From: Deltaproteobacteria bacterium
Lineage (GTDB): Bacteria > Myxococcota > JADLHZ01
DNA: 64,000 nt
Direction of reading: 5' to 3'
Assembly: GCA_020848545.1 (NCBI GenBank)
Contig: JADLHZ010000047.1
Coordinates: 32,420 to 96,419 of the forward strand
Below, in pieces: positions 20,791-45,844 of the stretch. Below the pieces are notes generated by a model. That model did not search any database. It was given only the letters and a program-made list of their open reading frames with translations, and was not told the origin of the DNA. Within the stretch, counting starts at the first letter, position 1. The number at the start of each line of letters is the position of its first letter. The position numbers and the translations under genes are program-made.

Positions 20791-22854
<2,064 letters not shown>

Positions 22855-22988
22855 GTGTGTTTCCTCTGCTTCGTGACGCTTCTTGGGCCGTGGCAAAGCC
22901 TATTCCTGACGGTACTCGTTTGCACGGGTGTCGCGAGTTTTTCCGTGGTCGCGGCGACGCAGAGGCGACGCGATCGCCGGCCGCGATG

Positions 22989-26562: not shown

Positions 26563-27069
26563 TCAGTGCGCGTCGGCGCCTTCGGTGACCCCGAGCGAAG
26601 CCGCTGGGGTTTCTTCGCTGGTCTCTTCTTCGTCGTCGCTCAGTTCCTCGCCGCCCTGCAAGCGCGTGAGCTCGCGATCGATGACCGCCAAGATCGCGTC
26701 GATGACGTGCGTCCGGTGCTTGGTCTCTTTGGCGTCCGGGACGACCGCCGAGCGCTCGTCGAGAAGCACGTCGCGGATCGCCAAGAGCGCCCGGCGCTGC
26801 GTCTCTTTCAGGGTCTCCGGGTTCGCCAGCTCGCGCGCGCTCGGCTGCAGCACGATCATCGTCCGCTCGAAGAACTGAAACACCTCGCACAGGAGCGAGG
26901 CCAGCGGATCATCCTTGGCGTAGGGCGCGGCCGCGTCTTTCAGCGAGCGAAACACGACGATCGACGCGCTCAGGATCTCGTGCTCGGCGCGCAGCAAGTG
27001 CTTGGCAACATCGCCCCAGCGGCCGTACTTCTTCAGCGAAAACCACATCTCGATCACTGTCTTGACCAT
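26563..27069 (-). CDS. Hypothetical helical protein (possible PHA granule-associated/phasin-like)
   Basis: ATG with GAGGGGGG RBS. The phasin guess rests only on position next to phaR. Confidence 0.4.
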   Translation of the reverse strand: MVKTVIEMWFSLKKYGRWGDVAKHLLRAEHEILSASIVVFRSLKDAAAPYAKDDPLASLLCEVFQFFERTMIVLQPSARELANPETLKETQRRALLAIRDVLLDERSAVVPDAKETKHRTHVIDAILAVIDRELTRLQGGEELSDDEEETSEETPAASLGVTEGADAH

Positions 27070-27214: not shown

Positions 27215-27946
27215 GTGACGCTCGAACGGTTGAAGGCGCAGCTCGTCGCGTGCTCCCACAAGATCGCGTTTCGCGGCTGGGTGGCGAACCACGACGGCAA
27301 CCTCTCGGCGCGCCTCCCCGATGGCCGCTTCTTGGCGACGCCGACCGCCGTGCACAAAGGCGACGTCGACCACACGATGCTCGTCGTCATCGATGAAAGC
27401 GGCGCCGTCCTCGAAGGCTCCCGCAGGATCTTCTCCGAGTGGGAGCTGCACCGCGCGATCTACCGCGCGCGTCCGGACGTTCAGGCCGTCGTCCACGCGC
27501 ATCCTCCGTACGCGACGGCCTGCGCGGTCGCGGGCTTCTCGCTGGCGGTGCCGGTGATGGTCGAGCCAGTCGTCTCGCTCGGCGTCGGCATCCCGAGCGT
27601 CCCCTTCTTCATGCCGAAGTCGGACCACGGGCTCGCAACGGTGGCCGAAGCGTCGACCCGCGCCGATGCGGTCATCATCGAGGGCCATGGGCCGCTGGCG
27701 TTCGGGCCCTCGCTCGAAACGGCGTATCTGCGGATGGAGCTCGTCGAGCACCAGGCGAAGATCCAAACGATCGCCCGCTCGCTCGGCGGAGCGCGGCCGC
27801 TGCCGGAAGAAGCGCTGCAACCGCTGCTCGATGCGCGGGTGAAGGGCGGACTGGCCGCGCCGCAAGAGGCGAAGGTCGTCTCGAGCGATCCCGCGCTGTC
27901 GACGCTCATCGCGCGCATCGTCGCCGAAGAGATCGCCGGCACATGA
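27215..27946 (+). CDS. Class II aldolase/adducin family protein
   Basis: 243 aa. HAHPPYATA metal-binding region and overall similarity to fuculose-phosphate aldolase/MTRu-1-P dehydratase folds. Confidence 0.75.
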   Translation: MTLERLKAQLVACSHKIAFRGWVANHDGNLSARLPDGRFLATPTAVHKGDVDHTMLVVIDESGAVLEGSRRIFSEWELHRAIYRARPDVQAVVHAHPPYATACAVAGFSLAVPVMVEPVVSLGVGIPSVPFFMPKSDHGLATVAEASTRADAVIIEGHGPLAFGPSLETAYLRMELVEHQAKIQTIARSLGGARPLPEEALQPLLDARVKGGLAAPQEAKVVSSDPALSTLIARIVAEEIAGT

Positions 27947-28533
27947 ACGCTCCAGGCGGCACGTTGCGCGGGCAAAAGGGCGCCAACTGCATCACGACGC
28001 GAGACTTCGTCCGCAAAGACGTCGGCGAGGCGCGCTGGCTCCGCTTCGTCGAGACGCTGCCGCCGGAGCAAGAAACGCTGGCGACGCGCAAGCTCTCCCC
28101 GGTCGAGTGGGTCGACTTCGATCACTGGATGGCGCTCGAGCAGCGCTTCTACGACGAGCTCTTCGGCGGCAGCTACGACGCGTACAAAGAGCTGACGAAC
28201 CGCATCATCAAACACGACTTCAACACGCTCTACCGTGCGCTCATCAAGATCGGCTCGCCGGCGTACCTCATCGAGCGCACCGCGCAGACCTACGGCAAGT
28301 TCTCGACCGTCGGGACGATGAGCTGCGTGAAGCTCGTGAAGGGCCCGAGCGAAGCCGATCCTTCGATCGTGCGCTTGGAAGGCGTGCCGGATCTGCCGGC
28401 GATCATCAGCGGCATTCACGGCGCGATCGAAGGGCTCATGGAGCTCAGCCGCGCCAAGAACCCAAAATGCTGGGTGCTGAAGAAGAGCGGCACGCGCGAA
28501 GCGGTGACCGTCGACTTCGCTGTCGTCTACTGA
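27943..28533 (+). CDS. DUF2378 (TIGR02265, Myxococcales-expanded paralogous family) protein
   Basis: 196 aa. The ATG overlaps the aldolase stop (ATGA). Family-typical length and conserved W/Y pattern. Confidence 0.55.
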   Translation: MNAPGGTLRGQKGANCITTRDFVRKDVGEARWLRFVETLPPEQETLATRKLSPVEWVDFDHWMALEQRFYDELFGGSYDAYKELTNRIIKHDFNTLYRALIKIGSPAYLIERTAQTYGKFSTVGTMSCVKLVKGPSEADPSIVRLEGVPDLPAIISGIHGAIEGLMELSRAKNPKCWVLKKSGTREAVTVDFAVVY

Positions 28534-28555: not shown

Positions 28556-28849
28556 CTAGGCCGCGCGGGTAGAAGCGCCGGCCGCTTCATCGACCATGTC
28601 GACGATGCCGACGATGAGCGCACGACACGGGCTCGCCGGCTCTTCCAAGATCTGCCGAATGCCGCTGCCCTCGTTCATCACGAGGACGACATCGCCAACG
28701 CCCGCTTGCACGTTGTCCATGGCAATGAACGACTCGCCGGCCGCGCGACCTTGGGCGTCGATCGGCTGTACGGTGAGCGTCTTCTTGCCGACGAATGCAG
28801 GATGCTTGGCCGAAGCGACGACTGGCCCGAGAACCTTACATACGCGCAT
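28556..28849 (-). CDS. EutN/CcmL family bacterial microcompartment vertex (BMC-P) protein
   Basis: 97 aa. MRVCKVLGPVVASAKHPAFVGKKTLTVQP matches the EutN_CcmL N-terminal strand. GAAGGAG RBS. Confidence 0.75.
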   Translation of the reverse strand: MRVCKVLGPVVASAKHPAFVGKKTLTVQPIDAQGRAAGESFIAMDNVQAGVGDVVLVMNEGSGIRQILEEPASPCRALIVGIVDMVDEAAGASTRAA

Positions 28850-28866
28850 AGAGGACTCCTTCGACC

Positions 28867-29124
28867 CTACATGTGGTCTATGATTCCCACTACAGCAGCG
28901 TCGACGGGAACGAAAGTTTTCGGCAGCGCCAGCGAAGCCTCGCGGCTGCCGACGAGGTAGACGATGTCGCCTGGCCCGGCCTGCACGGTGTCGCAGGCGA
29001 CCTCGGGATCGCGCGTCGGCTTCAGCTCATGATCGAGCGGCTGCACGAGGAGCAGCTTGATGCCGTCGAGGTCTTTGACCTTCTGCGACGCGACGACGCT
29101 TCCGAGCACTTTGCCGAAGTACAT
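28867..29124 (-). CDS. EutN/CcmL family bacterial microcompartment vertex (BMC-P) protein
   Basis: 85 aa. MYFGKVLGSVVASQKVKDLDGIKLLLVQP...AVVGIIDHM. Tandem with the previous gene. Confidence 0.75.
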   Translation of the reverse strand: MYFGKVLGSVVASQKVKDLDGIKLLLVQPLDHELKPTRDPEVACDTVQAGPGDIVYLVGSREASLALPKTFVPVDAAVVGIIDHM

Positions 29125-29139
29125 GCGGGGCCCGCGCTA

Positions 29140-30612
29140 TCACGGTGCTTCCTTCGGCTGCAACGCCGCCCGCGCCGATTGCACGATGGTCGTCATCTGC
29201 ACTTTCGGGGCGAAGCGCGACTCCATGAGGTGCGCGAAGGTCGCGAGGGCCGACTCGGCCTTGAACGCGATCAGCAGGCGGGACGCGGCCGGCAGGAAGT
29301 CGTCGTCATGGCGCACGTGCAAGTACACGTCGGCCGCGCGCTCGACGATGGCGACGACCTCGTCGACGTGGCGGTAGGAGGCGTCTTTGGCGAGCGGCAG
29401 CATCGCTTTTTCGAAGCGCACGAGCATCACCGGATCGCAGCCGGTCGTGCGCAGCAGGGCCAGGTAGTACTCGAGCTTCTGCGGCGCGTCGGCCAGGTGC
29501 CACGAGATCGTGTGCCAATCCGTCGGGCTCATCTGCACCATCGCTTCATCGAACGCGCGCTCGAGCCGCTTCGTCGGCACTTGCCGATCGTCGAAGCGGA
29601 GCACGCAGTAGGTGAGCGATCCGTCGCGCGGCGGCGGCAAGAGCGCGCGGCCCTTCTGCATCTCGGCGTAGAGCGAGAGCACGTGATAGTTCGCCGTCAC
29701 GCTGAACGAGCCATGGTGCGCGACGAAGGGCTCCTTGTCGCCCATGAGCTCCTCGATGTGCGTCACCGCTTTGTCGCCGGTGAGGAGCAGCATGCGCCCC
29801 TTGCTCATCGCGCGTAAGGAATCGATGCAGCGCAGGCCCATCGCGGGGAACAGGAAGCTCGCGTGGTCGAAGTCGCGGTAGAAGTCGAGCAAGCGATCGA
29901 GCAGCGGCTCGTTGTAGCGCGGGCGATCAGCGCGGGCGTAGGCGAAGTGCAGCTTCACGTCTTCGATCTGCTCGCGGAACTTGTACTCGGGCTCGTGGCC
30001 GTCCTTCGAGCTCAAGCTGACGAGCCCGTCTTGGAGCACCTGTTTGTCCACCTTGAAGAAGTCGTGTGGCAAGGAGTCGAAGAGGTAGTTCGCGACGACG
30101 AGCAGCGCGCTGCGATCGACGAGCTCCATCAGGCCCTTGCGCGCTTCGAGGAGGATCGGCACGCGCGGCTTCGACGCGTCGAACACGCAAAAGTCGACGA
30201 GGCCGTCGGCGGCGAGCTGGCGGAGCGCGGGGTTCTTCCGATGCGCTTCGACGTTCGTCTCGGTGAAGTCGCTGAGCACGTAGCAGATGCGCGGCAGGCC
30301 GAGCGCGCGGCGCGCGTGCTCGTAGTGGCGCAGGAAGCCGTAGCCCAGGCGGCCGGTGCCCGCGCCGAGCTCCAACGCGTAGACGGTTTGGCCCAGGGTC
30401 ACGGCGTCGGCCGTGCGCAGATCATCGAGCCAGGCGGCGGCGAGCTTCGCGTAGGTGAAGGCGAGGCCGGCGTGGTTGCTGATCTGGCTCGGCACGGTGC
30501 TCTCGGTCCACGCCGTCAGGCCGCGGCGATCGTAGAACGCGCGCATGAAGCGCCAGATCGACGAGCGCGACAGCGGCCGCAGCGTCTCGAAGTAACGCGG
30601 CTCCTCCTTCAT
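29140..30612 (-). CDS. MidA/NDUFAF7-like SAM-dependent methyltransferase family protein (PF02636-like)
   Basis: 490 aa from MKEEPRYF. LELGAGTGRL SAM-binding motif and family-typical N-terminal YFETL...W region. The ATG overlaps the upstream stop (ATGA). Confidence 0.55.
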   Translation of the reverse strand: MKEEPRYFETLRPLSRSSIWRFMRAFYDRRGLTAWTESTVPSQISNHAGLAFTYAKLAAAWLDDLRTADAVTLGQTVYALELGAGTGRLGYGFLRHYEHARRALGLPRICYVLSDFTETNVEAHRKNPALRQLAADGLVDFCVFDASKPRVPILLEARKGLMELVDRSALLVVANYLFDSLPHDFFKVDKQVLQDGLVSLSSKDGHEPEYKFREQIEDVKLHFAYARADRPRYNEPLLDRLLDFYRDFDHASFLFPAMGLRCIDSLRAMSKGRMLLLTGDKAVTHIEELMGDKEPFVAHHGSFSVTANYHVLSLYAEMQKGRALLPPPRDGSLTYCVLRFDDRQVPTKRLERAFDEAMVQMSPTDWHTISWHLADAPQKLEYYLALLRTTGCDPVMLVRFEKAMLPLAKDASYRHVDEVVAIVERAADVYLHVRHDDDFLPAASRLLIAFKAESALATFAHLMESRFAPKVQMTTIVQSARAALQPKEAP

Positions 30613-31664
30613 TCGTCTTCTTCCTGCTCGGCCTTCTCCTTGGCGGCGACCGCTTCGCGCGCGCGGCCCAAGATGCCGAGCGAGCGCTGCACGAAGGCGT
30701 CGAGGTAGACGGCGAGAAAGCCGATCCAAGGCTTGAGGTCGCCCGGCAAATCCACGCGCAGCGTGACGTCGATGACGTGCGCGTCCGGTCCGTGCTGGCT
30801 GTCGATGCTTGCGACGATCTTGCCGCTCGCGTCGGTCAAGGTCGCCGCCGGCGTGCGCCCAAACGGCTCCTTCAGGGTCAGCGCGCGGTCTTTTTGCACG
30901 ACGCTCCACTCGAACGGCTTCTCGGGGTCGTGGTGCGGATCGCCGGTGATCGTGAACAGCGGCTCCTTCTTCGGCGATCGAACGACGCTCTCGCCACGGC
31001 CGTCGAGCAAGCGATACGCGTCGGCGAGCAACGCCGGCTCGACGAAGCGCGAGATCTTCGGCAGCGCAAACACCGGATAGAAGACGCGATCCAAGTGCAC
31101 GACGTAGCCGACCTCGTACTTTTCGAGCATCACCACGTTTTGCACGTCGAGCTCCAAAGGAAAGCCGAACGCCGGCGACTTCACGCGCACCGTTTGCATC
31201 AGCGCGAGCTTGTGCGCGAGAAAATGCGTCTGGAAGATGCCGAGCCGGCCGCCGCGCGCTTTCAGACACGCGGTCCGCAACGCCTCGGCGAAGGTCTTGC
31301 GCGGCGAGATCTTCTCGTTGCGAAAGAGCCCCCACGTGATCATCTCGGCGGAGAGGCCGTTGTGCAGGTCGTCCGGGCCGAGCTCGAACTCGCGCGCGAG
31401 CATCAGCAGCACCCGCTCACGTTCGCGATCCTCTGGCGCCCGCTTCATCCGCTCCGAGCTCGCGTCGAGCTTCCAGATCGGCTGCGCGAAGTTGTAGCCC
31501 CAGGCGTCCTTGTCGATGAGCTTCGTCCGGTGCGGATCGCGCGGCGGCCGCGGCGCGCGCACGGGCGGACCACCCTGGCGTTGGCCGGGCCGCTGCGGAC
31601 GTTTGGGGGGTGCCTGGGCCAAGCGCTTGCGTTCTCCGGCGCGGAACGGTTTGTAGAGAAGCAT
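30609..31664 (-). CDS. Hypothetical protein (351 aa), co-transcribed with the MidA-like methyltransferase
   Basis: Start at MLLYKPF (31664). The longer ORF N-extension is antisense to the nucleotidyltransferase gene. Confidence 0.45.
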   Translation of the reverse strand: MLLYKPFRAGERKRLAQAPPKRPQRPGQRQGGPPVRAPRPPRDPHRTKLIDKDAWGYNFAQPIWKLDASSERMKRAPEDRERERVLLMLAREFELGPDDLHNGLSAEMITWGLFRNEKISPRKTFAEALRTACLKARGGRLGIFQTHFLAHKLALMQTVRVKSPAFGFPLELDVQNVVMLEKYEVGYVVHLDRVFYPVFALPKISRFVEPALLADAYRLLDGRGESVVRSPKKEPLFTITGDPHHDPEKPFEWSVVQKDRALTLKEPFGRTPAATLTDASGKIVASIDSQHGPDAHVIDVTLRVDLPGDLKPWIGFLAVYLDAFVQRSLGILGRAREAVAAKEKAEQEEDE

Positions 31665-39535: not shown

Positions 39536-42526
39536 TCAAGCGAACGCGTCGTACTTCGTTTCCAGGTAGCGCAGAAAGTCCTCGCTGGTCAGCGTCCTGC
39601 CAGTCGCGCGGCGCATGAGCTCGGCAGCCGAATGTCGCAGGCCGTGGACGTGAATCGTGCGCCTCAGCCAGTCGTGCACCGGCGCGAGATCACCGGCCGC
39701 GAGACGGGCGTCGAGGTCCCTCATCTCTTCGCGCATGCGCGTCCAAAGCATCGCCGCATACAGGTTGCCCAAGGTGTAGGTCGGAAAGTAACCGAACGCG
39801 CCAAGCGCCCAATGAACGTCTTGCAGGCAACCATCGACGGGGTTTGTCGGCCGAACCCCGAGCGTGCGATCCATGGCGTCGTCCCACGCGCCTGGCAAGT
39901 CGTCGACGGCGAGGTCCCCCGAGAGCAACGCGATCTCGAGCTCGGTCCGCACCGCGATGTGTAAGTTGTAGCTCATCTCGTCGGCCTCGACGCGGATGAG
40001 GCTCGGCCGAACGACGTTCACCTCACGATAGACCTGCTCGGCGCTGAGCCCGGCGAACCCCTCCGGCAACCGCTCTCGCGCCGCCGGCAGCAGACCGCGC
40101 CAGAAGGCCAACGACCGACCCACTTGGTTCTCCCAAAGGCGCGACTGGGATTCGTGCACTCCCATCGACGGCGCGTCTGCGAGCAGCGTTGTCGCGTCGG
40201 CGGCGGGAAAACCCTGATCGTAGAGCCCATGACCGCCTTCGTGCAGCGCTGCGAAGAACCCGGCACGAAAATCGTTTGCCGCATAGCGCACGGTGAGTCG
40301 AACGTCGTGACTCCCGGCCGCGAGCGTGAACGGGTGCGACGAGACATCGACGCGGCCTCGCGAAAAATCGAAACCCATCTTGCCGAGGACGTGGAGCGCG
40401 AGCGCCTGCTGGCCGGCCTCGGGCCAGGCACGCCCGGCGAAGACCGACGGTCGAGCCTCGCTCAACGCTGCGCTGCGGCGCAACAAGGCCGATAGTCGCG
40501 TGCTCAGCGCCGCGAGCTCGGGCGCGATCGTCAGACGCGTGAGCCCCGGCTCGTGCTCGTCGAGTAGACCGTCGTACACGGCGTCGCCACCAGCGCCCGT
40601 GGGGAGCAGCGAGGACAGCGCGGCGCCGCGTTCGCGACTGAGCGCGACGACGCGAGCCAGGGCGGGCCCGAAGGTCGCGAAGCGACCCTCTGTCCGCGCG
40701 CGCTCCCAAGCGGCCAGCGCGTCCGACTTCGCCGCGGCGAACGCTCTGACCAAGGTATCCGGCAGGGCAAGCGCGAGCCGGCGAAGGCGCCTGAGCTGCG
40801 CCACCTCCGCGAGCAACGCGGTGTCCCCAGCGGCGGTCGCAGCGACGTCTTCGGCCGCGTCAATCAACTCCTCGTCGAGCAGCAGCTTGTGCCGCAGGCT
40901 CTCGAGCGTCGCCACTTGCTCGCCCCGTTGCGGGCGGCCGCCCTCGGGCAAGTACGTCTCTTCGTCCCAGCCAAGCAGGCCGATCGCGGCGTCGAGATCC
41001 CGCAGCACCCGCACCTTCTCACGCAGGGCGTCGCGCGAGCCGCTGGTGCGGACCTGCGATCCGAGCGAGACGTCGTCATGAGCGCGCGCGACGAGCAGCG
41101 CCGCAATGCCCCCGCGTTGCGCCACATTGACGACCTGCTTCTGCGACGCGCGCACGAGCACGCCGAGGCCGTGGGCGGTCGCGGCAAACCCCATGACGGT
41201 GAAGAACGGTTCGACGACGCGCTTGCCGGCAGAATCGAGCGTCGGGAACTCGAAGACCGGAATTGGCGCCGCGCGCTGCACGACCCACTGCTCGTGCGGA
41301 TCGTTCTCGGACGCGAGCGCGCGGTCAACAGCGGCGGTCCACTCTTCGCGGCTCGCCGCTGCCCCGAGCAAGACGCCGCTGCCGCCGTAGCCCCTGTTCG
41401 GCTTCAGCACGAGGTCGCGCTGCTCACTCGAGAGCAACTCCTCGAGCGCCACGTCGCGCCCATCCCAGCGCAGCGTACGTCGTCGCGAAACAGTGCGCGT
41501 CCACAGCACGTGTTTGTCGAAGACTTGGCGCGACTCGGGCGAGAAGTAGCGCTCGGCGAGCAGCGGATCGGTGAGCAACTCCCAGCCGCTCTTGTGATCG
41601 AAGTCGCCGCCGAGCGACGACACCACGCGGTTCTCGCTGAACAGCTGCCACATCGCGTCGAGCCGAACCCCTTGCTCGTCTTCGAGGGCGAGCAAATCAC
41701 GCAGCTCGTAGTCGCGATAGACGAGATCGACCACCGCCTCTCCGTAGCGCACCTCGCCGCCGGCGACGCTGAGCTCCGTCGGATCGGCGTGCACCACCTG
41801 CAGGCCGTGCTTGGCGGCAATGAAGACTGAAAGCGAGCGCTGCTCGTCAGGCCCGCTCTGCTCGTACTTCGGCTCGACAAACGCCAAGGTGCGGAGCGGG
41901 CGACCAATGGCGTCGGCGTGATCGAGCAACGCCTGCACGAAGAGCTCGCGTTGATCGCGCGGCAGCTCGAGGTGCAGTGCCGGATCGTGACGGCGCATCT
42001 CGCCCACCACATCACGCATCACCAGCGTCTCGGCGACTGGGGCGTAGTGAATGCCGCCGATTCCCGAAAGGTTCGGCTCGAGAAACGCGAGCGACTGTTG
42101 CCACGCCGCGCTGGAGAAGTCGCAGACCGCGTCGAGCCGACCATAGATCGGGTTTTGAGCGCCGTGACGGGCGCTCCAAAACGAGCGCAGCCTCTGCTCT
42201 TCACGGGCGTCGAGCGGCAACACGCGCCGTACGTCGGCGTCCTGCAAATAGAGATCAGGCAGGCGACGAAGCGCGTCGTTGATCACTTCGCAGACGTGGT
42301 GCACGTAGCTCAGCTGATCGGCGGTCGCGGCGAGTGGCCGAGCAAGGATGCGCACGGGCTCGGTCTGACCATCGCGATCGTAGACGACGTGATTGGCGAG
42401 CGCGTCGGCACGCAGCCGCGCCTCCATCCGCCGCGCCGCCGAGTTGCTGATGAGCGACGCCGCGCGCCGGAGCTGCGCATCGATCGTCTTGCCGCGTAGA
42501 CCGACGATCTCGGACGGGCTCAACAT
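39536..42526 (-). CDS. Fusion protein (996 aa): N-terminal circularly-permuted ATP-grasp/glutathionylspermidine-synthase-like domain plus C-terminal complete M32 carboxypeptidase Taq-like metallopeptidase
   Basis: C-terminal half carries HEGGHGLY (HExxH), HESQSRLWEN, IRVEADEMSYNLHI and LLGWDEETYLPEGG, all M32 hallmarks. N-terminal half has LVLKPNRGYGGSGVLLG, ATP-grasp-like. ATG with GAAGGAG RBS at 42526. One continuous ORF in the track. Confidence 0.55.
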   Translation of the reverse strand: MLSPSEIVGLRGKTIDAQLRRAASLISNSAARRMEARLRADALANHVVYDRDGQTEPVRILARPLAATADQLSYVHHVCEVINDALRRLPDLYLQDADVRRVLPLDAREEQRLRSFWSARHGAQNPIYGRLDAVCDFSSAAWQQSLAFLEPNLSGIGGIHYAPVAETLVMRDVVGEMRRHDPALHLELPRDQRELFVQALLDHADAIGRPLRTLAFVEPKYEQSGPDEQRSLSVFIAAKHGLQVVHADPTELSVAGGEVRYGEAVVDLVYRDYELRDLLALEDEQGVRLDAMWQLFSENRVVSSLGGDFDHKSGWELLTDPLLAERYFSPESRQVFDKHVLWTRTVSRRRTLRWDGRDVALEELLSSEQRDLVLKPNRGYGGSGVLLGAAASREEWTAAVDRALASENDPHEQWVVQRAAPIPVFEFPTLDSAGKRVVEPFFTVMGFAATAHGLGVLVRASQKQVVNVAQRGGIAALLVARAHDDVSLGSQVRTSGSRDALREKVRVLRDLDAAIGLLGWDEETYLPEGGRPQRGEQVATLESLRHKLLLDEELIDAAEDVAATAAGDTALLAEVAQLRRLRRLALALPDTLVRAFAAAKSDALAAWERARTEGRFATFGPALARVVALSRERGAALSSLLPTGAGGDAVYDGLLDEHEPGLTRLTIAPELAALSTRLSALLRRSAALSEARPSVFAGRAWPEAGQQALALHVLGKMGFDFSRGRVDVSSHPFTLAAGSHDVRLTVRYAANDFRAGFFAALHEGGHGLYDQGFPAADATTLLADAPSMGVHESQSRLWENQVGRSLAFWRGLLPAARERLPEGFAGLSAEQVYREVNVVRPSLIRVEADEMSYNLHIAVRTELEIALLSGDLAVDDLPGAWDDAMDRTLGVRPTNPVDGCLQDVHWALGAFGYFPTYTLGNLYAAMLWTRMREEMRDLDARLAAGDLAPVHDWLRRTIHVHGLRHSAAELMRRATGRTLTSEDFLRYLETKYDAFA

Positions 42527-42555
42527 CTTGTGACGGCTCCTTCGGTGCGCCGCAC

Positions 42556-43050
42556 TCAGCCGCCTTGCCGAGTCGCTCGCGATCGGGCCTCTTCGATGGC
42601 TTCGGTCATCTGCGCACCGTCCATGGGCATCAGCGCCATACCCTGGATCCACTTCACTGCGTCTTGAACGGAGGAGAATGTTCTCGTCTTCTTATCGAAG
42701 ATCAACATACCGGTGAGGATCGCCCGAGCGCCCGCGGCGATGAACCCAGAACCCTCGACGATGTTCGCGCTCGCCCCAACAGAATCCACGTTCTGCTTCG
42801 TCATCTCGTCGACGAGCCGGCGGACCTCGGGGCTGATCTTTGGCAAGCTCTTGGGCCGAATGATCGACACCGTGGCGAGCAGCCCTGCCGACTCTGCACT
42901 CAGCCGGCGAAACAAACCTCCGACCGCGACGATGTCGGATTCCACGACGTTGCTTCCCCAGACTTGGAGGACGAGGCGTCCGGTGTGACCGAGCCACAAG
43001 CCATCAGAGTCGTGCGCCTGATTGAGAACCATGTCGAAGAATCTCAGCAA
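42556..43050 (-). CDS. Hypothetical protein (~160 aa)
   Basis: Start TTG 43050 or ATG 43032. No family recognised. Confidence 0.35.
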   Translation of the reverse strand: MLRFFDMVLNQAHDSDGLWLGHTGRLVLQVWGSNVVESDIVAVGGLFRRLSAESAGLLATVSIIRPKSLPKISPEVRRLVDEMTKQNVDSVGASANIVEGSGFIAAGARAILTGMLIFDKKTRTFSSVQDAVKWIQGMALMPMDGAQMTEAIEEARSRATRQGG

Positions 43051-43097: not shown

Positions 43098-44447
43098 TCA
43101 CCGAAGCGCGGCCCTGGCGATCGCGCGGACGTCGACTCGGGCGCCGTGCGTCTTCTCCACTTGTTGAGCGAGCTCCTCGATCGCATCGGACGCGTCGAAC
43201 GCCTGCAGCACCGTCACCGCCGCCGAAAGGAACGCGTCCTTGTCGCGCACGTGAAGATAGACGCGCGCCGCCTGGGCGATGACGCGCCGGAGCTGCAGCA
43301 CCTGCGACGACCGCGCGTCCTTCTTGTAGCGCATCAGCTCCGGCACCAAGCGCGCGACGAGGCTCGGATCGCAAGCCGCGGCGCGCATCACCGACAAGTA
43401 GTAGTCGAACGATTGTCCCGCGAACGACGGCGGCACGTGCGCCGCGATGCCGTGCAGATCCGACGGGCTCACGCGCGCCACGTGCTCCGCGTAGGCGTCG
43501 GCGAGCCGCGGCGCTGCGCTCAGCCCGTCCGCCGCGAGCGCGCAGATCTCGAACGCGCTCTGGCGCTGCGCCGGCACGTGCGCGCGGCCGCCCTGGTGCT
43601 CCGTCCAGCGTGCGAGGGCCGGGAAGCTCACGTTGAAGCTGAACGCGCCGGCGCCGTGGAGCACCGCGATCGGCGCGCGATCGTGATCGTGATCTTCGAT
43701 GCGCACGTGCGCCTTGTCGCCGACGAGCGCGAGCAGCTCACCGCCGGCCGCGGCCCGCAGCGCTTCCAAGCAGCGCAACGCAACAGTGGGCAAGAGAAAC
43801 GAGCGCGGGCCTTTCGTGGCGCTGAGCTCTTTGAGCACTGCCGCGAGCGCCGGATCCGCGTAGCGCTCACCTGCGACCACGGCGTAGTCGAAGCGCAGCG
43901 TGTCGGCCTGTGAGAGCGCGGGGACGTGGCCTTCGCTGAGCACGCCGTCGGCGACGCGAAAGTAGTCCTGCGGCAGCGAATCGAAGACGTAGTTGGCGAT
44001 GCACACGAGCGGGCCGGTCGCCGCGAGCGCCGGCCGCTCGGCGTCGAAGACCATGAAGTCGGCGAGCCCTTCGGCCGCAAGCGCCTGCCACGCCGGATGC
44101 GCGCGGAAGGCCGCGACGTTGGTCTCGGCGAAGTCCGTGAGCGTGTAGATGATCCGCGGCAGGCGCAAGGTGCGTCGGATCTCTTCATACGCCTGCACGA
44201 ACGCGTAGGCGAAGCGGCCGGCACCACTGCCGAGCTCGATCACGCGCACGGTCTGCGTTCGCTCGACGCGGCTTGCGCCGACGAGGTCGTCAATCCACGC
44301 GGCGGTGAGGCGCGCGTAGCAATGCGCGAGGGCGGCGTGGCTGCTCATGTGCCACGGGATGTCGTCCTCAATCCACGCCGCAGGACCTTTCTGCTCGTAG
44401 AATTCACGTTGCCTGCGCCAGATCGGCGATTCGGAGAGCGGGGTCAT
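43098..44447 (-). CDS. MidA/NDUFAF7-like SAM-dependent methyltransferase family protein, paralogue of 29140..30612
   Basis: 449 aa. IELGSGAGRF motif. Collinear similarity to 29140..30612 (ANYLFDSLP vs ANYVFDSLP, LLLTGDKA vs LALVGDKA). Confidence 0.55.
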   Translation of the reverse strand: MTPLSESPIWRRQREFYEQKGPAAWIEDDIPWHMSSHAALAHCYARLTAAWIDDLVGASRVERTQTVRVIELGSGAGRFAYAFVQAYEEIRRTLRLPRIIYTLTDFAETNVAAFRAHPAWQALAAEGLADFMVFDAERPALAATGPLVCIANYVFDSLPQDYFRVADGVLSEGHVPALSQADTLRFDYAVVAGERYADPALAAVLKELSATKGPRSFLLPTVALRCLEALRAAAGGELLALVGDKAHVRIEDHDHDRAPIAVLHGAGAFSFNVSFPALARWTEHQGGRAHVPAQRQSAFEICALAADGLSAAPRLADAYAEHVARVSPSDLHGIAAHVPPSFAGQSFDYYLSVMRAAACDPSLVARLVPELMRYKKDARSSQVLQLRRVIAQAARVYLHVRDKDAFLSAAVTVLQAFDASDAIEELAQQVEKTHGARVDVRAIARAALR

Positions 44448-44488: not shown

Positions 44489-45619
44489 CTAGAGCGTGGT
44501 GCGGATGGGCAGCGACATGCCGGATTCGCTGGCGAGGACGATGCCTTCTGGGCCGAAGAAGGTGACGGTGCGCGACTGGCCGAGCACGGTCTCGAGGGCG
44601 AAGACTTCGTAAGTGTTGTCGTACGCGTCGGTCATCGTCGCGGTGTAGCAGGTCATCGCCCCGTCGCCGTCCGGGTTGGCGGTGAAGTAGGCTTCTTCGG
44701 CTTCCAGGTTGGCTTCGACGATCGGGATGGCGGCTTCCGGTACCGACGTGACTTCCATCGCTCTCCATCCACCGGCGTTGAAGCTCGCGATGGTCGCGCT
44801 GATGTCCAACGCCCCGTTCGGGCTGTCTTCGCCAGGCTCGTTGGCGAGGACCGGCATGTCCGCCAGCGCGTCCCAGCTCAGCGTCTCGCGGGTGATCACG
44901 CCAGCGTCGTCGTACGTGCGGGTGGCGATGCCTGCGGCGACCCGCCTGGCCGAGCCGGCGAACGACGCGACTTCGCCGCGCGCGACGTCGACGATCGCAG
45001 CGCGCTCGCCGAAATCGGATTGGTCAGTCATGCCCATGATGAGGTACGTGCGGCCACCGGGCGCGCGCACGGTCGTCAAGCTGTGGATGGGATAATATTC
45101 TTCGGCGACGATGCGCGTCGTGCGCGTCACGACGTCGAACACCGCGAGCGCCATGCCGTGGTTCTCGTCGCCACCCAAGCGGCCGGCGACCGGGTAACAC
45201 ACGTAGCGGTTGTCGATGATGCGCACATCGGGTCGCTCCGCGGTGGCGGAGATGGCCTCGCCGACGTCCACCTCCTCGCCGTTCACCCGAACGGTCACCG
45301 GCCATTCGTAGTCGCCGCTTTCCCCGATGACTTGCAGGTTCGACGCGCCAGGCGTGTTCACCCAGCGCCCAGCGGTCACCGACGCGGCGAACTGGTCGTA
45401 CACGGCGAGCGACTCGAACGAGCCCGGCGAGGCGAGCAGGTGCGCGATCACAGCGCGACGATTTTCGGTGGTGTCAAACGAGCTGCGCAGTAACGCCCGC
45501 GCGGCGCTGCGGGCTTCGCCGCCAGTGATGGCAACCGTGCCGTCGCTCAGCGGGTTGGTGTCCGCGGTCTCTTGTTGAAAGCGATCGAGTAGGCGTTCAG
45601 AGCGGCAAATGGGGGGCAT
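44489..45619 (-). CDS. Hypothetical protein (376 aa)
   Basis: Long ORF with window-typical codon usage. No recognisable motifs or signal peptide. Confidence 0.45.
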   Translation of the reverse strand: MPPICRSERLLDRFQQETADTNPLSDGTVAITGGEARSAARALLRSSFDTTENRRAVIAHLLASPGSFESLAVYDQFAASVTAGRWVNTPGASNLQVIGESGDYEWPVTVRVNGEEVDVGEAISATAERPDVRIIDNRYVCYPVAGRLGGDENHGMALAVFDVVTRTTRIVAEEYYPIHSLTTVRAPGGRTYLIMGMTDQSDFGERAAIVDVARGEVASFAGSARRVAAGIATRTYDDAGVITRETLSWDALADMPVLANEPGEDSPNGALDISATIASFNAGGWRAMEVTSVPEAAIPIVEANLEAEEAYFTANPDGDGAMTCYTATMTDAYDNTYEVFALETVLGQSRTVTFFGPEGIVLASESGMSLPIRTTL

Positions 45620-45844
45620 ATTGGATCCTCCGCAGATCTTTTCGGAGGCGAACGCAACTCAACGCGTCAAGAACATATGACGGAGACGAACAAGTGTCGC
45701 GTCGAGGGAGCGGGTTCTCACCGTTCGTAGGCGCCCATGCCGCGGTTGGTGCGTAGGCGACGGTCGGCGCCGCTGATGTCGAACGGCAGCGCCTCGTTGA
45801 TGATGCCGTCGAGGTCTGCACCGCGATCTCGCGCGACACCTTGG

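What the first reader, a model, noticed from the sequence alone, without database searches (positions are those of the whole stretch)
28556..31664. Two tandem orphan EutN/CcmL (BMC vertex) genes in an operon with a MidA-like methyltransferase and a hypothetical protein; no BMC-H/BMC-T shell genes or signature enzyme nearby
Pentamer genes alone cannot build a shell, and satellite BMC-P loci normally accompany a main locus elsewhere. Here the gene order hypothetical (ATGA) methyltransferase, 15-nt gap, EutN, 17-nt gap, EutN indicates co-transcription with a PF02636-like methyltransferase, a combination not known for characterised microcompartments. A second MidA-like paralogue (43098..44447) lies 13 kb away.
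Basis: partly seen in the sequence, partly recalled or inferred. Interest (0 to 1): 0.55.

Follow-up and report, generated by a model that had tools for sequence, protein, structure and literature searches.

The report
Satellite vertex-protein locus of a microcompartment
The two small genes are real microcompartment vertex proteins, but they are not orphans: with the aldolase next door, which carries a targeting tail, they form the already described "satellite" locus of the Haliangium-type microcompartment of myxobacteria, and the methyltransferase in front of them looks like a clade-specific neighbour rather than a new component.

Summary
Four minus-strand genes lie at 28556-31664: a 351-aa hypothetical, an ATGA overlap, a MidA-like methyltransferase, a 15-nt gap, EutN, a 17-nt gap, EutN. 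Both small proteins match PF03319 strongly.

Its C-terminal tail, LSTLIARIVAEEI, looks like an encapsulation peptide. "Two BMC-P plus an aldolase" is the satellite locus that Sutter et al. 2021 describe for type I HO (Haliangium ochraceum-type) microcompartments. The source is an uncultured Myxococcota.

In 80 metagenome loci, the same EutN pair nearly always follows an aldehyde dehydrogenase inside a full shell locus. None carries the methyltransferase or the hypothetical.

The methyltransferase adjacency is confined to one clade. No terminal targeting peptide specific to the locus was found, and a 40%-identical paralogue lies 13 kb away in a non-BMC context. Orthologues of the 351-aa protein keep the same neighbours in genomes without adjacent EutN genes.

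Verdict: an ordinary new member of a known satellite locus type with a minor clade-specific twist. Interest is low.

The parts
28867..29124 (-). BMC-P paralogue A (85 aa), a vertex pentamer protein
   Evidence: PF03319 at 94.6 bits over 83/83 profile positions. Homologous to solved BMC-P, CcmL and EutN structures, including the HO shell 5V74. It is 85-87% identical in sister lineages. Its relatives sit in complete BMC loci.
28556..28849 (-). BMC-P paralogue B (97 aa), 39% identical to A, preceded by an AGGAG ribosome-binding site
   Evidence: PF03319 at 90.2 bits. PDB matches. An orthologue lies directly downstream of A in 73 of 74 assessable related loci. A and B carry distinct signature motifs.
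27215..27946 (+). Class II aldolase (243 aa), the probable encapsulated cargo or signature enzyme of the satellite locus
   Evidence: PF00596 at 150 bits. It aligns to L-fuculose-phosphate aldolases only up to about residue 204. It is 81% identical in L003. In L019-L023 and L026 the aldolase follows the EutN pair on the same strand.
27887..27943 (+). C-terminal encapsulation-peptide-like tail of the aldolase (DPALSTLIARIVAEEIAGT)
   Evidence: The motif is conserved in aldolases 48-81% identical, after a linker of variable length; L021 has about 40 extra residues in the linker. It resembles the PduP targeting peptide LETLIRTILSEQL, whose sequence is in PMC5405515. Sutter 2021 notes possible C-terminal encapsulation peptides on about a third of HO aldolases.
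29140..30612 (-). MidA-like SAM-dependent methyltransferase (490 aa) with a C-terminal helical-repeat region; probably co-transcribed with the BMC-P pair; a clade-specific neighbour
   Evidence: PF02636 at 24.5 bits. The motif I residues LELGAGTGRL and D115 are invariant. The top PDB matches of the AF2 model are MidA 5zu0/5ztz, 4f3n and 1zkd. Its orthologues precede the EutN pair only in one Myxococcota clade. None occurs in the other EutN loci.
30609..31664 (-). Hypothetical protein (351 aa as listed, probably 317 aa from the GTG at 31562); tubby-like beta-barrel with a central C-terminal helix; a resident neighbour of the divergent NTP-transferase gene
   Evidence: No Pfam or NCBIfam match. 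Nine homologues among 5.8 billion proteins and 20 representatives among 1.84 billion. AF2 pLDDT is 80, and the best meaningful PDB match is TULP1 3c5n. The orthologues in L024 and L025 keep the NTP-transferase and dCMP-deaminase neighbours without the methyltransferase or EutN.
27943..28533 (+). Species-specific hypothetical (196 aa) between the aldolase and the EutN pair; its start overlaps the aldolase stop
   Evidence: No family match. Among the loci fetched it is found only in the 99%-identical contig L001.
26563..27069 (-). Hypothetical (168 aa), a conserved neighbour of the aldolase
   Evidence: 76% identical in L003 and 46% in L019, next to the aldolase in both. No Pfam match.
43098..44447 (-). 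Paralogue of the MidA-like methyltransferase (449 aa), with no BMC gene next to it
   Evidence: PF02636 at 27.7 bits. It is 40% identical to the first copy over the full length, including the C-terminal helix.

Best explanation
The locus is the satellite half of an HO-type (Haliangium ochraceum-type) bacterial microcompartment in an uncultured Myxococcota. The two EutN/CcmL genes encode two of the three BMC-P paralogues (the 'BMC-P triplet'). These form pentamers that cap the twelve vertices of the icosahedral shell. The convergent class II aldolase is the satellite's enzyme. Its C-terminal amphipathic tail would dock it inside the shell, where it would release an aldehyde from a sugar or sugar-phosphate-like substrate. 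An encapsulated aldehyde dehydrogenase would then consume that aldehyde. The genes for BMC-H, BMC-T, the third BMC-P and the aldehyde dehydrogenase are expected in a main locus elsewhere in the genome.

In this clade the pair has come to lie directly behind a MidA-like methyltransferase and a resident hypothetical gene, and is probably transcribed with them. The aldolase segment has been inverted. The methyltransferase and the hypothetical are most likely cytosolic neighbours, not compartment parts.

Shown here: the identity of the proteins, the gene order, the conservation, the encapsulation-peptide-like tail, and the context of relatives. Inferred: shell assembly, encapsulation, the substrate chemistry, the existence of a main locus, and co-transcription.
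For: Both proteins match PF03319 strongly and are homologous to solved pentamers. Neither is the orthologue of the HO main-locus BMC-P Hoch_5814: they are 39-42% identical to it, as expected for the two satellite members. The source is Myxococcota / 'Deltaproteobacteria bacterium'.

Sutter et al. 2021 describe a satellite locus with two BMC-P and an aldolase for type I HO. They report a PF00596 aldolase on the satellite in 24 of 30 type I loci, the BMC-P triplet split between main and satellite loci, and possible C-terminal encapsulation peptides on about a third of the aldolases (PMC8217296).

The window has a PF00596 aldolase 0.6 kb from the pair. It carries a tail of about 35 aa beyond the FucA fold. 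The tail ends in a motif conserved across 48-81% identical aldolases after a variable linker, and the motif resembles the PduP signal.

Other Myxococcota contigs have EutN-A, EutN-B and the aldolase on one strand. In 80 more distant loci the A-B pair follows a PduP-like aldehyde dehydrogenase in 70 of 72 cases, and lies with a BMC-H in 23 of 24. The pair is therefore a bona fide shell module that has split off here.

The EutN genes (85-86%) and the aldolase (81%) are conserved as well as the flanking housekeeping genes (72-91%). The methyltransferase (57-67%) and the hypothetical (56-67%) evolve faster.

The methyltransferase's terminal segments are shared with its non-BMC paralogue and with distant relatives. 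The hypothetical's C-terminal helix is shared by all its orthologues, and in the model follows the beta-barrel, the arrangement of the tubby-like fold.
Against: The main locus was not seen. It is absent from the 64-kb window, and the rest of the genome could not be searched.

The aldolase is on the opposite strand, separated from the pair by a 196-aa ORF, so it is not in the same transcript as the BMC-P genes.

Assignment to HO rather than to another triplet-bearing type rests on taxon and gene content. The catalog's own HMMs and trees could not be applied.

The encapsulation-peptide call rests on pattern and conservation; the hydrophobic moment of the tail is only moderate.

The gaps between the methyltransferase, EutN-A and EutN-B stay short (9-17 nt, with one of 55 nt) in all orthologous contigs. 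That is compatible with a real functional coupling of the methyltransferase.
Confidence: 0.75

Rival explanations
1. The MidA-like methyltransferase is a genuine accessory of the microcompartment. It is co-expressed with the vertex proteins and methylates a shell or cargo protein, by analogy with MidA/NDUFAF7, which methylates an arginine of a complex I subunit. This would tune assembly or permeability.
For: The genes share a strand with gaps of 9-17 nt, conserved in every contig that carries a methyltransferase orthologue and extends downstream of it. SAM-binding residues are intact and the fold is MidA-like. A methyltransferase-like protein sits between shell genes in the unrelated BUF2 locus type (Sutter 2021 Supplementary Data 2).
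Against: The adjacency is confined to one clade. None of 80 related EutN loci and none of the other Myxococcota EutN loci has the gene. Distant family members in 13 genomes have no BMC gene within 10 kb. No encapsulation peptide was found: the termini are shared with a paralogue in a non-BMC context. It evolves faster than the shell genes. Flanking housekeeping genes are equally syntenic, so the conserved order may be inertia.
Confidence: 0.12
2. The pair is truly orphan. The lineage has lost the main locus, and the two BMC-P proteins, with or without the aldolase, have a shell-independent role.
For: No other shell gene lies in 64 kb or within the 10 kb shown on either side in the 203-kb contig of a relative. 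The new upstream partners could reflect recruitment into another process.
Against: The sequences are very strongly conserved, as is typical of assembly interfaces. The aldolase retains its encapsulation-peptide-like tail. In type I HO the main locus is distal by definition. No shell-free function of BMC-P is known; this last point rests on general knowledge.
Confidence: 0.07
3. The locus is a satellite of a different triplet-bearing BMC type (SPU-like, FRAG or MIC), not HO.
For: BMC-P triplets occur in several types: ACI, FRAG, SPU and HO. Most of the 51-65% identical pairs lie in aldehyde-dehydrogenase-containing main loci of unclassified type. Some Myxococcota carry SPU-like BMCs with a class II aldolase (PMC12747264).
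Against: The specific combination of two BMC-P plus a PF00596 aldolase as a detached satellite in Deltaproteobacteria/Myxococcota is described only for HO type I in the catalog text read here.
Confidence: 0.12

Closest known systems
Satellite locus of type I HO (Haliangium ochraceum-type) bacterial microcompartments (Sutter et al. 2021, PMC8217296). From memory, the H. ochraceum pair is Hoch_4425/4426.
   Same: Two adjacent, divergent BMC-P genes lie away from any BMC-H or BMC-T. A PF00596 class II aldolase with a possible C-terminal encapsulation peptide sits beside them. The host is Deltaproteobacteria/Myxococcota.
   Different: The aldolase is inverted (convergent) and separated from the pair by a species-specific ORF. 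The pair is fused into a probable operon behind a MidA-like methyltransferase and a tubby-like hypothetical. The main locus was not observed.
AldDh-BMC-P-BMC-P module at the 3' end of complete BMC main loci (HO type II or SPU-like loci in metagenomes)
   Same: Orthologous A then B gene order with short gaps; 51-65% identity.
   Different: In those loci the pair follows an aldehyde dehydrogenase and lies within 6 kb of BMC-H, BMC-T and further BMC-P genes. Here none of these is present.
MidA / NDUFAF7 protein arginine methyltransferases (PF02636; PDB 5zu0, 1zkd, 4f3n)
   Same: Class I SAM-binding motif, a marginal PF02636 match, and the best structural matches.
   Different: Only about 11-15% identity to the solved structures, with low TM scores (0.26-0.45). 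The protein carries an extra C-terminal helical-repeat region and belongs to a separate ~500-aa MidA+TPR family of unknown substrate.
BUF2 microcompartment loci of Micromonosporales (Sutter 2021, Supplementary Data 2)
   Same: A methyltransferase-like gene lies next to shell genes, and no encapsulation peptide is detectable.
   Different: Different phylum. BUF2 is a complete locus with BMC-H, BMC-P and BMC-T. Homology between the two methyltransferases was not tested.

Membership tests
BMC-P (EutN/CcmL, PF03319) vertex proteins | Full-length match to PF03319 above the gathering score | tested here: met
   94.6 and 90.2 bits against a cutoff of 25, covering profile positions 1-83 of 83.
BMC-P (EutN/CcmL, PF03319) vertex proteins | Sequence homology to structurally solved pentamers | tested here: met
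   Matches to 5V74 HO BMC-P, CcmL (2qw7, 4jw0), EutN (2hd3) and 4i7a, with E-values of 1e-10 to 1e-13. NCBIfam equivalog cutoffs for CcmL, EutN and CsoS4 are not reached, so this is a separate subfamily.
BMC-P (EutN/CcmL, PF03319) vertex proteins | Orthologues encoded together with BMC-H/BMC-T shell genes | tested here: met
   23 of 24 related loci with at least 6 kb of upstream sequence carry a BMC-H.
BMC-P (EutN/CcmL, PF03319) vertex proteins | Forms pentamers that occupy shell vertices | not testable with these tools
   Needs expression with HO-type hexamers and trimers, followed by EM or a solved structure.
HO type I BMC satellite locus (Sutter 2021) | Two adjacent BMC-P genes from different BMC-P clades, away from BMC-H | tested here: met
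   A and B are 39% identical and form distinct orthologous groups. No BMC-H lies in the 64 kb.
HO type I BMC satellite locus (Sutter 2021) | PF00596 class II aldolase in the satellite | tested here: met
   Aldolase at 27215-27946, 150 bits, 0.6 kb from the pair. It is on the opposite strand here and on the same strand in L019-L023 and L026.
HO type I BMC satellite locus (Sutter 2021) | Aldolase C-terminal extension that may be an encapsulation peptide (present in about a third of members) | tested here: met
   About 35 aa lie beyond the FucA fold. The terminal motif is conserved after a variable linker and resembles the PduP signal. Function was not tested.
HO type I BMC satellite locus (Sutter 2021) | Host in Deltaproteobacteria/Myxococcota | tested here: met
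   Source labels are 'MAG: Deltaproteobacteria bacterium' and 'Myxococcota bacterium' for the closest genome.
HO type I BMC satellite locus (Sutter 2021) | A main locus elsewhere with one BMC-H, the BMC-T genes, a third BMC-P and an AldDh carrying an N-terminal encapsulation peptide | not testable with these tools
   Only absence from the window is shown.
HO type I BMC satellite locus (Sutter 2021) | Assignment by the catalog's own shell-protein colour clades and HMMaldol_6_ho | not testable with these tools
   The HMMs and the relevant part of the BMC-P tree are not in the stored supplements.
MidA/NDUFAF7-like methyltransferase (PF02636) | Pfam match above the gathering score | tested here: met
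   24.5 bits against 23.3, covering only part of the profile. This is marginal. The paralogue scores 27.7 bits.
MidA/NDUFAF7-like methyltransferase (PF02636) | Class I SAM-binding motif and MidA-like fold | tested here: met
   E81, G83, G85, G87 and D115 are invariant. The top Foldseek PDB hits are 5zu0, 5ztz, 4f3n and 1zkd at probability 1.0, but with TM scores of only 0.26-0.45 and a model pLDDT of 72.
MidA/NDUFAF7-like methyltransferase (PF02636) | Protein arginine methyltransferase activity | not testable with these tools
   Needs a biochemical assay.
Encapsulated BMC cargo (for the methyltransferase and the 351-aa protein) | A terminal amphipathic helix, set off by a linker, that is specific to the BMC-associated copies | tested here: not met
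   The methyltransferase's N- and C-terminal helices are shared with the non-BMC paralogue and with distant relatives. The hypothetical's C-terminal helix is invariant in orthologues that lack EutN neighbours, and in the model it follows the beta-barrel as in the tubby-like fold.

The most novel reading that the evidence does not exclude
In this Myxococcota clade a MidA-like protein methyltransferase has been recruited into the operon of the vertex proteins. It post-translationally methylates a shell or cargo protein. That would be the first dedicated modifying enzyme controlling the assembly or permeability of a bacterial microcompartment.
Probability: 0.07. Interest if true: 0.6.

Novelty: new member of a known kind. 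Interest (0 to 1): 0.2.

Why it matters
The native function of the HO-type compartment, the main structural model for BMC shells, is still described as enigmatic (PMC8217296). Each further satellite locus with a conserved, peptide-tagged aldolase supports the idea that a sugar-derived aldehyde is made inside the shell. It also supplies a natural C-terminal targeting tag for engineering. The methyltransferase adjacency is a cheap hypothesis to test, but on present evidence it is probably an accident of gene order in one lineage.

Tried and rejected
- Exact-sequence look-ups of window proteins, meant to reach the rest of the 101-kb source contig, failed.
It returned only one close genome.
- Hoch_4425 and Hoch_4426 could not be found in the stored supplements or in papers. 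The link to the H. ochraceum genes therefore rests on memory.
- The catalog's HMMs for the HO aldolase and for its encapsulation peptide were not in the stored text.
- Hydrophobic-moment scans did not discriminate terminal helices.
- The promoter and terminator scan gave nothing above the shuffle expectation.
- Rfam found nothing in the window.
- PADLOC gave no hit for the methyltransferases or the hypotheticals, so a defence-system reading was dropped.
- I considered the C-terminal helix of the methyltransferase and that of the 351-aa protein as encapsulation peptides. I rejected both because non-BMC paralogues or orthologues share them.
- I considered hyp196 as a conserved satellite component and rejected it, because among the fetched loci it occurs only in the same species.
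Full report
**Observation.** The ORF list and the sequence show four minus-strand genes.
- A hypothetical at 30609-31664.
- A 490-aa gene at 29140-30612, whose ATG overlaps the preceding stop as ATGA.
- An 85-aa gene at 28867-29124, after 15 nt.
- A 97-aa gene at 28556-28849, after 17 nt, preceded by AGGAG.

Pfam assigns both small proteins to EutN_CcmL (PF03319) at 94.6 and 90.2 bits over the whole profile. The 490-aa protein matches Methyltransf_28 (PF02636) only marginally, at 24.5 bits against a cutoff of 23.3. The hypothetical has no family. Both small proteins match solved BMC-P, CcmL and EutN chains, including the Haliangium shell 5V74. Six-frame tblastn of the window found no BMC-H or BMC-T, no third BMC-P and no PduP-like aldehyde dehydrogenase. 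Pfam scans of most other large ORFs show nothing BMC-related.

A 243-aa class II aldolase lies at 27215-27946 on the + strand, convergent with the EutN pair (PF00596, 150 bits). It is followed by an overlapping 196-aa ORF that ends 22 nt from the EutN-B stop. The aldolase aligns to L-fuculose-phosphate aldolases only up to about residue 204. The extra tail ends in DPALSTLIARIVAEEIAGT. In aldolases 48-81% identical from other contigs, the motif LS.LI.R(I/V)V.EE(I/L) is kept while the preceding linker varies; one contig has about 40 extra residues there. This is the anatomy of an encapsulation peptide. The motif resembles the PduP signal LETLIRTILSEQL, whose sequence is in PMC5405515.

**Source and comparative context.** An identical EutN-A and an identical hypothetical are on a 101-kb NCBI contig labelled 'MAG: Deltaproteobacteria bacterium', locus tag IT381_13690. 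The only close genome in the species collection is a Myxococcota MAG.

The methyltransferase has just four close homologues, at 57-99% identity. On every contig that extends far enough, the order is hypothetical, methyltransferase, EutN, EutN, with 9-17 nt gaps and one gap of 55 nt. The flanking genes are also the same: divergent NTP-transferase and dCMP deaminase on one side, and a class II aldolase on the other in every contig that extends far enough. The flanking housekeeping genes are equally syntenic, so conservation of the block is weak evidence of function.

Between the window and these contigs, identity varies by gene:

| Gene | Identity |
|---|---|
| EutN genes | 85-86% |
| Aldolase | 81% |
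| Housekeeping neighbours | 72-91% |
| Methyltransferase | 57-67% |
| Hypothetical | 56-67% |

**The EutN pair elsewhere.** In other Myxococcota contigs the pair occurs in one of two arrangements.
- It stands alone, as in L018, where EutN-A is 87% identical.
- It is followed on the same strand by the aldolase, as in L019-L023 and L026.

A scan of metagenome contigs returned 80 loci with EutN-A relatives at 51-65% identity. Their contexts:

| Feature in related loci | Count |
|---|---|
| EutN-B orthologue directly downstream | 73 of 74 |
| PduP-like aldehyde dehydrogenase directly upstream | 70 of 72 |
| BMC-H present (loci with at least 6 kb upstream) | 23 of 24 |
| Aldolase adjacent | 1 of 53 |
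| Methyltransferase or hypothetical present | 0 of 80 |

The A-B pair is therefore an old shell module that normally ends a complete locus. In the window's wider lineage it has split off.

**Comparison with what is known.** Sutter et al. [quoted passage not shown] Their Supplementary Data 2 adds the following points.
- HO loci are mostly in Deltaproteobacteria.
- The type I main locus holds only shell genes and an aldehyde dehydrogenase.
- A PF00596 aldolase is on the satellite in 24 of 30 type I loci.
- About a third of these aldolases have a possible C-terminal encapsulation peptide.
- The BMC-P triplet is split between the main and satellite loci.

The window meets every one of these features that could be tested. 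Neither window BMC-P is the orthologue of the main-locus Hoch_5814 (39-42% identity), which fits the two satellite members. The one defining feature that could not be tested is the main locus itself.

**The methyltransferase.** SAM-binding residues are invariant. The AF2 model has a pLDDT of 72. Its best PDB matches are MidA structures, at probability 1.0 but with low TM scores. The wider family is a ~500-aa MidA+TPR group found in many phyla. In 13 such genomes no EutN or BMC-H lies within 10 kb. The paralogue at 43098-44447 is 40% identical end to end, including the C-terminal helix, and has no BMC neighbour. The N-terminal segment is also shared with distant relatives. No locus-specific targeting peptide is therefore evident.

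**The hypothetical.** It belongs to a very small family: 9 hits among 5.8 billion proteins and 20 representatives among 1.84 billion. The AF2 model (pLDDT 80) is a beta-barrel followed by a C-terminal helix, and the only meaningful PDB match is the tubby domain of TULP1. Orthologues at 45-49% identity sit next to the same NTP-transferase and dCMP-deaminase genes without any methyltransferase or EutN. It is a resident gene, and the other genes landed behind it. Its C-terminal helix is common to all orthologues, so it is not an encapsulation peptide.

**Mechanism.**
- Shown: the proteins' families, the gene order, the conservation, the tail motif, and the contexts of relatives.
- Inferred from established BMC biology: the two BMC-P form vertex pentamers of a shell whose facets are encoded elsewhere. 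The aldolase is carried inside by its tail and produces an aldehyde. An encapsulated, CoA-acylating aldehyde dehydrogenase consumes that aldehyde.
- Also inferred: co-transcription of the pair with the methyltransferase. The scans found no convincing terminator or promoter.

**Verdict.** This is a known kind of locus, an HO-type satellite, in a new uncultured lineage. It carries two small rearrangements: an inverted aldolase segment, and a fusion behind a methyltransferase operon. The methyltransferase link is the only unusual element, and it is more likely incidental (about 0.12 that it is functional). Interest is low.

Noticed in passing
window 28867-29124 vs L001 6777-7049: EutN-A is 85 aa here but 90 aa in a 99%-identical strain and in L003. 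The difference is a 5-aa loop insertion (GALNA / AAIQP) after SREASxAL. This is an indel polymorphism in a vertex protein between near-identical genomes.
   Followed up: partly
window 26563-27069 (-): A 168-aa helical protein with an acidic tail and no Pfam match stays next to the satellite aldolase in two Myxococcota clades: L003 at 76% and L019 at 46%. It may be an unrecognised HO-associated gene or a regulator.
   Followed up: partly
L026-L105 (metagenome loci): Most complete loci carry four EutN-like genes: two Hoch_5814-like genes after the BMC-H, and the A-B pair after the aldehyde dehydrogenase. That is more than the 'triplet' described. Their BMC type was not determined.
   Followed up: no
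window 30609-31562 (-): The hypothetical belongs to a very rare family, with 20 representatives among 1.84 billion clusters. Its predicted fold is a tubby-like barrel, and it has a strictly conserved MKRAPEDRERER motif.
   Followed up: partly
window 3351-6006 (+) and 20791-22899 (-): The PrkA / DUF444 (YeaH) / SpoVR stress-module genes are present but split about 15 kb apart. They lie in the lowest-GC stretches of the window (0.60-0.61 against about 0.67).
   Followed up: no
window 39536-42691 (-): An M32 carboxypeptidase domain occupies only residues 556-1047 of a 1051-aa ORF. The 550-aa N-terminal part has no Pfam match, and the ORF start may be overcalled.
   Followed up: no
window 44489-45658 (-) and 43098-44447 (-): The methyltransferase paralogue is also preceded by a family-less ORF (389 aa) on the same strand. 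That ORF is unrelated to the 351-aa protein.
   Followed up: partly
window 31562-31664: If the hypothetical started at the listed ATG (31664), it would abut the divergent NTP-transferase start (31663) with no intergenic space. A 99%-identical contig calls a 317-aa product, which points to the GTG at 31562.
   Followed up: partly
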